Below, piece by piece: positions 59,956 to 64,000 of a stretch of 64,000 bases of DNA (position 1 is its first letter; each line of letters begins with the position of its first letter). The position numbers were made by a program, and so were the translations under genes. This DNA comes from an uncultured Verrucomicrobiae bacterium. Lineage in GTDB: Bacteria > Verrucomicrobiota > Verrucomicrobiia > Chthoniobacterales > JAFAMB01. Under the pieces are notes generated by a model that made no database searches, was not told where the DNA came from, and was given only the letters and a program-made list of their open reading frames with translations. The stretch lies in NCBI GenBank assembly GCA_963813025.1, contig CAWEXO010000011.1:672001-736000 (forward strand), in the 5' to 3' direction.

Positions 59956-60215
59956 GGGCTTGGCTCGGGGTGCGGGGGAACCCGCTACGCAGCGATCGTC
60001 GCGGCAGGGAAATGTGAGAAAGTGAAGAGGCCCGCGCATCGTATCAAAACGGGACGGCCACGCGCGCAATTCGCTGGCGCACAACTGCCAGATCAAACGT
60101 CTCCGGCAAAGGCGTTTCGTACTGCGTCAAGACGCTTGGGGCCAAGTCCGGACTGGAAGCAGGCGTGAGGTCGCGTCAATGAGGAGGAGCGTCTCGATCT
60201 GGACGAGCAGGAGCT

Positions 60216-61628
60216 GGTAGTGTCCGCTTTTTTGTGTGCGGGTCGATTGGTGCTTTGCTGTTTAACTCCGGGCAAGTTGTTCTGAGGACGTCAGCTCGAG
60301 CCGGCGAGACCGCCCTCCAGGCGGTCGGTCCAGCGCCGGGCGAGCTGTGAGCAACGGGCTTTGGCGTTGTTCAAGTCCTCGGCAACAACTTGCCACTTTT
60401 CTCTTTTCTTTCTCCATCACAGGCCGGCTTCCGTTGCCAGAAAGCGCTCGCCAAATTGGATGGCAAACTGGGTTGCCGCCAACTTCCAGGTGATCGGCGG
60501 ATTTTTCCATTTCTTAGTGATGTTGCGTAAGGCGAGGTAAATCAATTTAGTCGCGGCTTCATCATTGGGGAAATGACCTCTGGTTTTGAGCACCTTACGC
60601 AATTGCATGTGCAAACTCTCAATGGCGTTGGTGGTGTAAATGATCCGGCGAATCTCCACTGGATAAGCAAAGAAAGGAACCACTTGGTCCCACACTCTTC
60701 GCCAGCTCTGGACCACAGCTGGTAGTTTTTTACCCAACTCGCTTGCGGCAAATTCCTCCAACCGTTTGGCAGCTAGCTCCGCCGTCTCGGCGTTGTAAAT
60801 GCGCTTCAGTTCCCGAGCCACGGGCTGATGCTGTTTCCAGTTACAGAAGGATAGTGAGTTGCGCATCAGATGCACAATACAGGTCTGAATTTGGGTCTCG
60901 GGAAAAACCGCGGTAATGGCTTCCGGAAAACCTTTAAGCCCGTCGATGACCGCGATCAAAATATCCTCCACCCCGCGGTGTTGAAGCTCGTTCATGACCG
61001 CTAGCCAGAACTTGGCTCCTTCGGTTTGCTGGATCCACAGGCCCAGCACCTCTTTGGTGCCATCACGCTGGATCGCCAAGGCGAGGTAAACCGCTTTGTT
61101 TTTCACGTTCCTTCGTCGCGGATTTTGACCCGTAGGGCGTCAAAGAAGATCACCGGATACATCTTCTCCAGGGGTCGGTTCTGCCACTCCAGCACGTCCT
61201 CCAGGACCGAATCAGTTACCGTGCTGATCAGATCGGCCGAGACCTCCACCTTGTATTGCTCTTCTAAAAACGCCTTGATCTCCCGCACCGTCATTCGTTG
61301 GGCGTACATGGCAATGATTTTGGAATCGAAGCCACCAAAGCGTCGTTGCCCTTTGCGAATGAACCGCGGCCCTTCTCATAACCCAGGTAATGGGTCATCT
61401 CGGCTCCAAGCACCCGTTCGTACAGGCGCTTGGTAAGTTGCTCCATGATCCCTCCCGGACCGGTCAAATCTTCCGGCCGCTCGTAGCCCTTCATCAGCTC
61501 TTCAATGATCGCCGGATCGATCTCCGGCTTCCTGCTTTGCTTCCCCTGCTCTGCTTGCTCTTTTTTCTTGGTCACTTCCATCTTCTTATCTCAGGTTGTG
61601 ACCCACACACAAAATTTAAGACACCCTC
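60216..61628 (-). mobile_element. IS256-family element, decayed
   Basis: Imperfect TIRs GGTAGTGTCCGCTTTTTTGTGTG (60216) and GAGGGTGTCTTAAATTTTGTGTG (from 61628, minus strand). Confidence 0.85.
60417..61581 (-). pseudogene. IS256 transposase pseudogene (internal deletion near 61370, frameshift near 61105)
   Basis: AEMTHYLGYEK, WQNRPLE, FFDAL, IDGLKGF, QTCIVH, YTTNAIES. Confidence 0.9.
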
Positions 61629-61731
61629 TCTGGAGCGCGTGGCTGCCGCAGATTCCGGCTCGAACGAGTCTTCGCCGAAGGCTCCTCCTTCGCTAAAGCT
61701 TCGGCGGACACGTCAAATGAATTCTCGCCCT
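61629..61731. repeat. REP family A copy interrupted by IS110 (continues at 63055-63066)
   Basis: tccggctcgaacgagtcttcgccgaaggctc...atgaattctcgccCT|accggcacaagg matches the reverse complement of 32946-33005. Confidence 0.88.
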
Positions 61732-61745
61732 TGTACCTTGCCCCA

Positions 61746-61972
61746 CCAATTTTTTTTCCCTTTTAAAGCCGCCCGCAAGGGCGGAACTCTGGAGGTGAAG
61801 AACTTGGCCGAGGAGGGTGGAAAACTGCCTCGCCCAAAGGTCGGTAGAACCTGTCCGGTAGATTAGTCCACCCTTCCTCGTGCCGCACCTGCATAAGACC
61901 GTACCGTATCTTAGGCCGTTCCAAACAGGGTTGGAACATAAGCCCGTGTTCACAAGGCTCTGTCAGCAGGCG
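61746..61972 (+). ncRNA. Bridge RNA (5' hairpin, target-binding loop, donor-binding loop); ends approximate
   Basis: Hairpin CCGCCC-GCAA-GGGCGG; stem 61809-61821/61867-61880 enclosing CTCGCCC and CCGGTAG; stem CCTGC/GCAGG enclosing ACCGTATCT and ACAAG. Confidence 0.85.
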
Positions 61973-62026
61973 CGCGCCCAAGCGCTTCATCAAACAAAGA
62001 ACCAATTCAACTCGAATTCCTGTCTG

Positions 62027-63037
62027 ATGAAAAAACGCTACTGCATGGGTATTGATATGGCAAAAGCAAGCTTTGACTTTTGCCTGCTCTCCAAGAATGG
62101 CACTCGCCTGTGGCGGGGAAAGTTCAGCAATGATGCGACCGGCATTGGAGCATTTTTAGCCCAACTCCAGGCCCGCTCTTGGCCGCTCTCCCAGATCCAC
62201 TTCGCCCTGGAAGCCACCGGGGTCTACGGGAAGAGATTGATCGCCGCTCTGCACCAAGCAGGCTTGGCGGTCAGCGTGCTCAATCCCGCCCAAGTCAAAT
62301 ACTTTGCTTTCTCGGTCCTGCGCCGCACCAAAAATGATCGGGTTGATGCGGCCATCATTGCCCAGTTTTGTCTGGAGCGAAAACCACTGGCCACTCGGCC
62401 GCTGCGCCCCCTTGAGGAAGAATTCAAACTGCTGGTGCGGGAGCGCGAAAGCCGGGTTGGCGAGCTCATCCGGGAACAGAACCGGGTGAAAAAAGACCCT
62501 TACCCAATTGCGCTGCCCGAGCTTATCAGCCAACAGCGTGGCCAACGACTCGCCCAGCTCAAGAAAGAAATCGCTCAGCTGGAGTCGGCCATCTTCGGCT
62601 TAGTCGCGGCTGATCAGGCTTTAAGCCGCCAAAGCCAACTGCTGTGCTCTATTCCCGGCATTGCCCAGCTCACAGCCGCCAAGCTGCTGGCCGAGCTGGC
62701 CGGTAAAGAGTTCCAATCGGCTCGGCAGTTGGCGGCCTATGCTGGGCTGACTCCTTCTGAATTCCGTTCCGGTGTCTCGCTCTACGGCAAAACCACCCTG
62801 TGCAAAATCGGCAACGCTTTCCTGCGCAAAGCACTCTATTTGCCGGCCGCCGTTGCTCGCCGCTGGTGCAAACCCATCCAGCAATGGGCCGCAGGTCTCG
62901 AGTCGCGCAAGCTCCACTCCCTGGCTATCCGCGGTGCCGTCATGCGAAAACTCCTGCACATCGCCTTCGGTGTTCTCGCTCACCAACAACCCTACAATCC
63001 TAACCTGGCCCGCCATTCCTTAAAGCAATGCCCTTGA
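62027..63037 (+). CDS. IS110 DEDD recombinase
   Basis: GIDMAK (D), LEATG (E), KNDRVDA (D,D), SIPGIA, AAYAGLTP, FRSG (Tnp Ser), MRKLL. Confidence 0.96.
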   Translation: MKKRYCMGIDMAKASFDFCLLSKNGTRLWRGKFSNDATGIGAFLAQLQARSWPLSQIHFALEATGVYGKRLIAALHQAGLAVSVLNPAQVKYFAFSVLRRTKNDRVDAAIIAQFCLERKPLATRPLRPLEEEFKLLVRERESRVGELIREQNRVKKDPYPIALPELISQQRGQRLAQLKKEIAQLESAIFGLVAADQALSRQSQLLCSIPGIAQLTAAKLLAELAGKEFQSARQLAAYAGLTPSEFRSGVSLYGKTTLCKIGNAFLRKALYLPAAVARRWCKPIQQWAAGLESRKLHSLAIRGAVMRKLLHIAFGVLAHQQPYNPNLARHSLKQCP

Positions 63038-63145
63038 CATCCAAGACCGTATCTACCGGCACAAGGCCATAGATTACGTTGCAAGACAACGTATCACCGC
63101 GACAGAGAAGAACGATTTTTACGAAGCGAGGCCCGGCCTCGTTCG

Positions 63146-63664
63146 CTAGGGAGTTCTCAGCGATTGGAGCCATCGCCGCATCATGTTGGTTTCAGTCCCT
63201 ACGGGGCCGGTATTAGGTCCCCGAGACGCCCGGGAGCCGGTATCAACCAGCCGCTGCGAACCGCTGGCCACGATGCGACCGGATGGATCTCGGAGCACAT
63301 AATCAAACGCTAGCCTGGCGGGGGTTCTAGTTCGAACAACTCTCACCGATTGCGGTCCGGTTGTCCGCCGGCCCGCGAGATCGATATTCGTGAAGCGAAG
63401 GTCAAGCGTATGAGCCGGAAATCGCCTGGCCATCACGGGTAGGAGCGCGCTGGTGACGTTCTGGGTAAAAACCGTCGACGAATGTTGGAAATCGCGATTG
63501 TTGATACGAAAGTCAGTAAATCTTCCTGGATCAACATAATCGATGGTCACCACCGCGGGAGCAGAAGGGGTGCCAGGCGCGGCGGTCCGAGTGGTGGTGG
63601 AGGTGCAACCGAAGTTACTAATGATCAACGCGAACGCGCCTATCGCGACTAATGATAGTTTCAT
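63146..63664 (-). CDS. DUF3016-like lipoprotein
   Basis: Lipobox NFGC; YVDPGRFTDF, FTNIDLAG, VRVVR..PARLAFDY, MMRRW. Confidence 0.7.
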   Translation of the reverse strand: MKLSLVAIGAFALIISNFGCTSTTTRTAAPGTPSAPAVVTIDYVDPGRFTDFRINNRDFQHSSTVFTQNVTSALLPVMARRFPAHTLDLRFTNIDLAGRRTTGPQSVRVVRTRTPARLAFDYVLRDPSGRIVASGSQRLVDTGSRASRGPNTGPVGTETNMMRRWLQSLRTP

Positions 63665-64000
63665 AACACACTGACTATCTTTTGCTAATAATTCGGTTCC
63701 AGTTTGCCTGCCAGCAGTAGCCCACCGCGATCGGGCTAACACGCGGATTGCTGCAACAGGCGCACAAAGAGTCGATCGTTTCACAGAGGGTTGGCCGGCC
63801 AGTCAGCCCGAATAGTTACAGCGTGTGCCCGGCCAAGCAAGAAAATACTGGTATCATCTGCTCACCTTAACTCCGTTTGGCTGAAAGCGCTAAATTACCT
63901 CGGTGACAAAATAGACGATGTCCGATTCTTTTTCGGCATTATCTGCGCCATTGGTTTCTTTGATCTTCACGAAGCCTCTGGACTCATAGAATTCACGGGC

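What the first reader, a model, noticed from the sequence alone, without database searches (positions are those of the whole stretch)
61730..63054. Complete IS110 bridge-recombinase system with a fully decodable bridge RNA
Seen in sequence: an intact DEDD+Ser recombinase (62027-63037) follows a ~295 bp non-coding left end, and the element is bounded by CT on both sides. The reconstructed target is TCTCGCC-CT-ACCGG and the reconstructed donor junction is ACCGTAT-CT-TGTAC. A first stem-loop (61809-61880) carries CTCGCCC (61829-61835, same as the left target) and CCGGTAG (61855-61861, exact reverse complement of CTACCGG). A second stem-loop (61888-61970) carries ACCGTATCT (61903-61911, exact left donor) and ACAAG (61952-61956, reverse complement of CTTGT). 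Established: this is the target-loop/donor-loop layout of the IS621 bridge RNA, whose donor I recall as ACAGTATCTTGTAT. Inference: this is a new programmable RNA-guided recombinase ortholog with its own target specificity and longer loops. The mechanism class is known; this element probably is not.
Basis: partly seen in the sequence, partly recalled or inferred. Interest (0 to 1): 0.92.

Follow-up and report, generated by a model that had tools for sequence, protein, structure and literature searches.

The report
IS621-type bridge recombinase targeting a repeat
This is a real, recently mobile jumping gene whose small guide RNA steers it into one spot of a common repeated sequence in its bacterium; it is a clear new example of a well-studied RNA-guided system, not a new kind of system.

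Summary
Window 61730-63054 is an IS110 element of the IS621 group. The 336-aa recombinase has intact D10/E62/D104/D107/S248. The genome holds 13 left and 12 right ends with identical boundaries; 11 of 12 complete sites rebuild to TCGCC-CT-ACCGG. That motif is the GTAG end of a REP-like repeat, with 95 empty copies against about 1 expected. Guides follow targets across homologs: right guide 76 of 85 bases, left guide 111 of 120, and no permutation reached either value. It differs from IS621 in a shorter left target guide that does not pair with the core T, a full 7-bp right guide, and longer outer hairpins. Expression, circles and recombination were not observed. The mechanism is published and thousands of orthologs were predicted, so this is a new member of a known kind. 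The scan had noted other IS110 families in this genome, not this element.

The parts
61730..63054 (+). IS110 element (IS621 group), 1325 bp including both CT cores
   Evidence: same ends in 13 left and 12 right ends in the genome
61723..61729 (+). left target (positions 1-7), end of a REP-like repeat
   Evidence: TCGCC before CT in 12 of 13 left flanks, TCGCT in 1
63055..63059 (+). right target ACCGG (positions 10-14)
   Evidence: 12 of 12 right flanks
61730..61736 (+). left core CT and right donor TGTAC
63046..63054 (+). left donor ACCGTAT and right core CT
63034..63039 (+). -35 box TTGACA of the predicted circle-junction promoter (overlaps the stop codon)
   Evidence: TTGAC at this spacing in 57 of 62 homolog right ends; function inferred
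61734..61739 (+). -10-like box TACCTT, 17 nt from the -35 box once the ends are joined
   Evidence: TAYYTT in 47 of 47 parsed homolog left ends, but the parsing pattern itself fixes part of it; only 3 of 6 consensus; no promoter in the linear form; inferred
61746..61972 (+). predicted bridge RNA (start and end inferred)
   Evidence: fold z -3.74; constrained fold; no RNA data
61769..61784 (+). 5' hairpin of the bridge RNA
61809..61880 (+). target-binding stem-loop
61829..61835 (+). left target guide (target positions 2-8); the next base A61836 does not match the core T
   Evidence: covariation; spacing against IS621 linkers
61855..61861 (+). right target guide, full 7-bp complement of CT-ACCGG
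61862..61863 (+). target-loop handshake bases AU (complement donor positions 6-7)
   Evidence: sequence; same as IS621 A81/U82
61888..61970 (+). donor-binding stem-loop
   Evidence: RNAalifold did not recover the inner part
61903..61911 (+). left donor guide
   Evidence: follows the donor where homolog donors differ
61948..61956 (+). right donor guide, 9 nt pairing with 7 bases around a 2-nt bulge
   Evidence: first base is G with donor TGTAC, mostly A with donor TGTAT; same pattern as IS621
61957..61958 (+). donor-loop handshake bases GC
   Evidence: first base complements target position 7 in 26 of 32 guide sets
62027..63037 (+). DEDD/Ser recombinase, 336 aa; D10, E62, D104, D107, S248
   Evidence: PF01548 and PF02371; NF033542 208 bits, cut-off 140; IS621 chain E 2.4e-46; residues
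61629..61729 (+). right half of the REP-like paired repeat that received the insertion
   Evidence: repeat family; identical 101 bp flanks the C13 copy
60216..61628 (-). neighbouring frameshifted IS256-family element (context only)
   Evidence: PF00872; ends

Best explanation
An IS621-group IS110 element that moves by bridge recombination. Shown here: the ends, the target consensus, guide-target and guide-donor covariation, intact catalytic residues and recent spread. Inferred from IS621: excision joins the right end to the left end, creating a TTGACA-17-TACCTT promoter and the donor ACCGTAT-CT-TGTAC. A roughly 225-nt RNA from the left end binds a recombinase tetramer. Its first loop pairs with TCGCC-CT-ACCGG at the outer GTAG end of an intergenic REP-like repeat, and its second loop pairs with the donor. 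Strands are exchanged at the CT through phosphoserine links. The handshake bases make 0 Watson-Crick pairs before exchange and 3 after, which favours insertion. Deleted copies that keep both ends probably move in trans.
For: Same ends in all copies. 7 copies have a full 336-aa ORF at 99% or more DNA identity. Right-guide covariation: 76 of 85 bases over 17 distinct guides, permutation mean 40.8, 0 of 20,000 reached it. Left-guide covariation: 111 of 120 over 20 guides, mean 83.0, 0 of 5,000. In-genome test of the far end of the right guide: 12 of 12 occupied sites end in GG against 95 of 231 empty TCGCCCTACC sites (Fisher p 3.7e-5). A second IS110 family in the same repeat shows GG in only 4 of 10 sites. 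The linker G residues and the RNA scaffold sit where IS621 has them.
Against: No expression, circle or recombination was observed. Homologs are related, so the permutation counts overstate significance. The guides were parsed by patterns modelled on this element (52 of 85 loci parsed; 55 of 139). One homolog family has a right guide matching only 3 of 5 bases (L001 type). With the guides forced open, the fold is 11 kcal/mol less stable than the free minimum (-75.3 against -86.6). The -10 box is weak (3 of 6). The third wedge residue is Ala, against Met in IS621.
Confidence: 0.93

Rival explanations
1. Base pairing is needed but not sufficient: the repeat's own hairpin next to the target is a second determinant, as reported for ISPpu10.
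For: All 13 left flanks end in the repeat's terminal motif. ISPpu10 needs a target stem-loop (abstract only). The left guide is short.
Against: Nearly all perfect 12-mers lie in the repeat anyway, so the genome cannot separate the two. The DNA hairpins are modest: -4.7 and -12.3 kcal/mol.
Confidence: 0.25
2. The protein or the repeat's structure picks the site, and the guide-like matches are leftover fragments of repeat or element ends.
For: The target is an abundant repeat, so fragments of it could be captured.
Against: The guides change together with unrelated targets in homologs (e.g. CACAAAG with CT-TTGTG, CCCGAAG with CT-TCGGG), on the strands that the IS621 structure predicts.
Confidence: 0.03
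3. The family is active, but this particular copy arrived by gene conversion or recombination from the C13 copy rather than by its own insertion.
For: The window copy and the C13 copy share an identical 101-bp left flank found nowhere else. The neighbouring IS256 lacks matching direct repeats. SNPs among copies are mosaic.
Against: The right flanks differ and are unique. The genes on both sides are syntenic with a congener that has a repeat unit but no IS there. Identical 101-bp repeat halves also occur among empty sites (5 of 231). The two copies differ at 8 aligned columns.
Confidence: 0.25

Closest known systems
IS621 of Escherichia coli and its bridge RNA (PMC11208160, PMC11208158)
   Same: DEDD plus Ser recombinase; RNA in the left end; CT core; four guides on the same strands; split right donor guide; AU handshake; junction promoter; insertion at CT-AC in a REP-type repeat (IS621 target ATCAGGCCTAC).
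   Different: Distant protein (E 2.4e-46). Target TCGCC-CT-ACCGG. Donor differs at 2 of 14 bases. Left target guide of 7 nt without core-T pairing, against 9 nt. Right target guide of 7 bp, against 4. Outer hairpins +3 and +11 nt.
ISCro4 / IS622 (bioRxiv 10.1101/2025.05.14.653916; PDB 9t56)
   Same: Same family and two-loop RNA recognising 14-bp target and donor around CT.
   Different: 88% identical to IS621 and experimentally active in human cells; this element is distant and untested.
ISPpu9/MITEPpu9 and ISPpu10 of Pseudomonas putida (PMC12288879; bioRxiv 10.64898/2026.03.19.712850)
   Same: IS110 elements in REP or conserved intergenic repeats; non-autonomous derivatives likely moved in trans.
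   Different: The derivatives here are internally deleted copies of a sister element that keep their own bridge RNA; a hairpin requirement is untested here.

Membership tests
IS110 family | RuvC-like DEDD domain (PF01548) plus C-terminal serine domain (PF02371) | tested here: met
   both above cut-off; NF033542 above cut-off; D10/E62/D104/D107/S248 align with IS621 D11/E60/D102/D105/S241
IS110 family | insertion at a short shared core without a longer target duplication | tested here: met
   CT at both ends of 12 of 12 complete sites; 95 empty sites carry one CT
IS110 group (not IS1111) | long left end holding the RNA, short right end | tested here: met
   left end 297 bp, right end 17 bp after the stop codon; group definition
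IS621-type bridge RNA | 5' hairpin plus two stem-loops with internal loops | tested here: met
   constrained fold; the alignment fold recovers the target loop and the donor outer stem but not the donor inner stem, with only 4 of 45 pairs showing double changes
IS621-type bridge RNA | left and right target guides covary with target | tested here: met
   111 of 120 and 76 of 85; no permutation reached either
IS621-type bridge RNA | left and right donor guides match donor, right guide discontinuous | tested here: met
   both outer right-guide bases complement donor positions 13-14 in 29 of 32 guide sets, a feature the parser scored for; left guide changes with donor
IS621-type bridge RNA | handshake bases pair after strand exchange | tested here: met
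   AU with donor positions 6-7; G with target position 7; 26 of 32 homolog sets complementary at that base
IS621-type bridge RNA | left target guide pairs through both core bases (9 nt in IS621) | tested here: not met
   A61836 faces the core T; U in only 3 of 14 rows of this clade but 13 of 13 distant rows. The paper allows 8 or 9 nt for 5' guides, so this is a variation rather than an exclusion
IS621-type bridge RNA | sigma-70 promoter formed at the circle junction | tested here: inconclusive
   -35 perfect and conserved, spacer 17, -10 only 3 of 6
IS621-type bridge RNA | RNA is expressed, binds the recombinase and directs recombination via a circular form | not testable with these tools
   no RNA holder listed; only contigs could be laid

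The most novel reading that the evidence does not exclude
This verrucomicrobial clade uses a rebalanced target loop: a short left guide that has given up pairing with the core T and can slip by one base (the L041 type reads TCGCCG-CT), offset by a full 7-bp right guide. The freed base may pair with the matching base of the donor loop. If so, it is a natural scaffold variant with different specificity or strand-exchange rules from IS621.
Probability: 0.15. Interest if true: 0.55.

Novelty: new member of a known kind. Interest (0 to 1): 0.3.

Why it matters
It adds a distant, recently mobile bridge-recombinase ortholog with a well-defined 12-bp natural specificity, and the genome itself shows that the far end of the right guide is enforced. 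That makes it a ready candidate for ortholog screens. It also shows two unrelated IS110 families using one repeat three bases apart, and deleted copies that still spread. None of this changes the known mechanism.

Tried and rejected
1. RNA-RNA pair between the 9th bases of the two left guides. It looked complementary among close homologs. In 32 guide sets it was Watson-Crick in 15 (permutation mean 9.3; 128 of 20,000 reached it), but 11 sets are U/U and the complementary sets cluster on the tree. Inconclusive; not claimed.
2. Expression and circles. No RNA holder listed. Four contig sets were laid and showed no end-to-end joint; contigs cannot show absence.
3. A RAYT transposase for the target repeat. 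Three Y1 hits in the genome, none with the repeat motif in its locus; the assembly is 80% complete.
4. Rfam: 0 matches in 60000-64000.
5. Exact empty allele. The congener G401 is syntenic with one repeat unit and no IS, but too diverged to give the allele. The C13 flank was not found in G401.
6. Viral-contig searches added no parsed guide set, nor did the 30 loci; the phylum sample gave 0 of 300 other genomes.
7. Nearest plasmid proteins are 37-42% identical in the 12 rows shown; none reaches 60% among 5000 records.
No covariance model, structure prediction or ISfinder search was run.

Full report
Observation. The 336-aa ORF at 62027-63037 hits PF01548 and PF02371, NF033542 and the solved IS621 and ISCro4 recombinases. 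D10, E62, D104, D107 and S248 match the IS621 catalytic set; A63, G65 and N86 match its core-reading residues. The stretch 61746-61972 folds better than all 200 shuffles. One of 100,000 resampled left ends held three or more of the four guide motifs.

Copies fix the ends. The genome has 13 left ends and 12 right ends of this element, all at the same base. Nine are of the window's type (about 99% identical): 7 with a full ORF, 1 with an in-frame deletion, and 1 whose middle is replaced by other sequence. Four are a sister type, about 80-90% identical, all internally deleted, and one of them lacks its right end. Left flanks end in TCGCC in 12 of 13 and TCGCT in 1; right flanks read ACCGG in 12 of 12. 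Two sister copies (C9:218159, C15:124629) are 99.4% identical and share one deletion, which in C15 removes D104 and D107, yet they sit in different flanks. They most likely moved after losing the enzyme, in trans. An intact sister copy in the missing fifth of the assembly cannot be excluded.

The target is a repeat. TCGCCCTACCGG occurs empty 95 times against 1.1 expected; 5 of the 95 lie inside long ORFs, which cover 66% of the genome. Of 115 minus-strand TCGCCCTACC sites, 71 have an opposite-strand partner within 250 bp, mostly about 105 bp away. The unit is therefore a paired repeat with GTAG at its outer ends. Calling it a REP or REPIN rests on my recall of those repeats; no associated RAYT was found. 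IS621 also inserts at CT-AC in REP elements. In a congener the flanking genes are syntenic, and the spacer holds one repeat unit and no IS.

The RNA maps onto IS621. Against the IS621 numbering and its sequence in the supplement, the linker G residues fall at 61827, 61853, 61901 and 61946. The left target guide is 61829-35, the right target guide 61855-61 and the handshake 61862-63. The left donor guide is 61903-11; the right donor guide is 61948-56 with a two-base bulge, followed by the handshake at 61957-58. The spans from left guide to right guide are 3 and 11 nt longer than in IS621; the extra length is in the outer hairpins. The handshake bases give 0 Watson-Crick pairs before exchange and 3 after, against 1 and 3 in IS621. 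Joining the ends gives TTGACA, 17 nt, TACCTT; TTGAC is kept at that spacing in 57 of 62 homolog right ends. The -10 box is weak, and transcription is not shown.

Covariation. I examined 85 homolog loci after dropping 29 that repeated this genome or other loci and 3 unrelated Y1 loci; 52 were parsed. Over 17 distinct right guides, 76 of 85 non-core bases complement the right target (permutation mean 40.8; 0 of 20,000). Over 20 left guides, 111 of 120 bases at positions 3-8 match (mean 83.0 with the same best-window search; 0 of 5,000). Of 41 loci with a right target, 28 match 5 of 5, 6 match 4, 6 match 3 and 1 matches 2. Relatedness inflates these statistics, but the changes are many and clear, such as TTGTG, TCGGG, CCGGG, ACGGG and ACCTG targets with their complementary guides. 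Within the genome, 12 of 12 occupied sites end in GG against 95 of 231 empty sites (p 3.7e-5). A second IS110 family, inserted 3 bases away in the same repeat, shows GG in 4 of 10. Position 2 is C in 6 of 13 occupied sites against 12 of 95 empty ones (p 0.008; 0.02 after dropping the copy with the duplicated flank). That fits the C in the intact type's guide, even for 3 of 4 sister copies whose own guide has U. The numbers are small.

Differences from IS621. The left target guide covers positions 2-8 only, and the base facing the core T is A. It is U in 3 of 14 rows of this clade and in 13 of 13 distant rows. The right guide pairs over 7 bases; longer right guides in some orthologs are already reported. 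One close group reads its left guide one base further along (L041 type). A suspected pair between the ninth bases of the two left guides did not hold up in the wider set.

Mechanism and rivals. The best reading is bridge recombination as solved for IS621 (confidence 0.93). The chemistry, the circle and expression are inferred. A role for the repeat's hairpin on top of base pairing is open. This copy's local history is also unclear: it shares an identical 101-bp left flank with the C13 copy, and the adjacent IS256 lacks matching direct repeats.

Literature. PMC11208160: abstract, passages, sections 6, 7 and 12, and a term search of 6 of 7 supplement files, two of them cut. This element's donor, target and protein start had 0 hits there. 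PMC11208158: passages and sections 7 and 8. PMC13626964: passages. bioRxiv 2025.05.14.653916: passages, with 0 hits for 'Verrucomicrob'; supplement not seen. bioRxiv 2026.03.19.712850: abstract and outline only. PMC12288879: passages. Two searches combining IS110 with Verrucomicrobia terms returned 0 papers. ISfinder could not be searched, so 'not catalogued' is not established. The host's group is inferred from the record titles of the closest homologs.

Verdict. A real, recently spreading, unusually well-documented IS621-type element. New member of a known kind; interest 0.3.

Noticed in passing
G000, 10 copies, e.g. C13:93100 and C11:83624: A second IS110 family (about 23% protein identity to this one) inserts in the same repeat at the G three bases left of this element's CT: 10 of 10 left junctions and 9 of 10 right junctions agree.
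   Followed up: partly
window 61629-61729 and G000 C13:237717-237817: Identical 101-bp left flank shared by two copies whose right flanks differ; found nowhere else in the genome. Unexplained.
   Followed up: partly
window 60216-61628: Frameshifted IS256-family element without matching direct repeats; the left half of the paired repeat seen in the congener is missing here. A sister IS256 at C4:45491 sits in the centre of the repeat next to another copy of this IS110.
   Followed up: partly
G000 C9:218159, C15:124629, C12:154616, C14:421125: Internally deleted sister copies that keep the bridge RNA; two share one deletion at different sites.
   Followed up: yes
G000 C9:67089-69147: Copy whose middle is replaced by about 1.45 kb with a different 345-aa ORF, probably another insertion sequence.
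   Followed up: no
L015, left end of the element: The first 11 bases of the left end are repeated in tandem three times.
   Followed up: no
L001-L003, L007: Homolog family whose right target guide mismatches its targets next to the core yet has several copies; L007 shows one extra C at the left junction.
   Followed up: no
G000, whole genome: 40 matches to the IS110 DEDD domain in several families; one 10-copy family inserts next to CTAG-like sites.
   Followed up: no
L024 and L025: Y1 (RAYT-like) genes surrounded by a different GTAG-type repeat.
   Followed up: no
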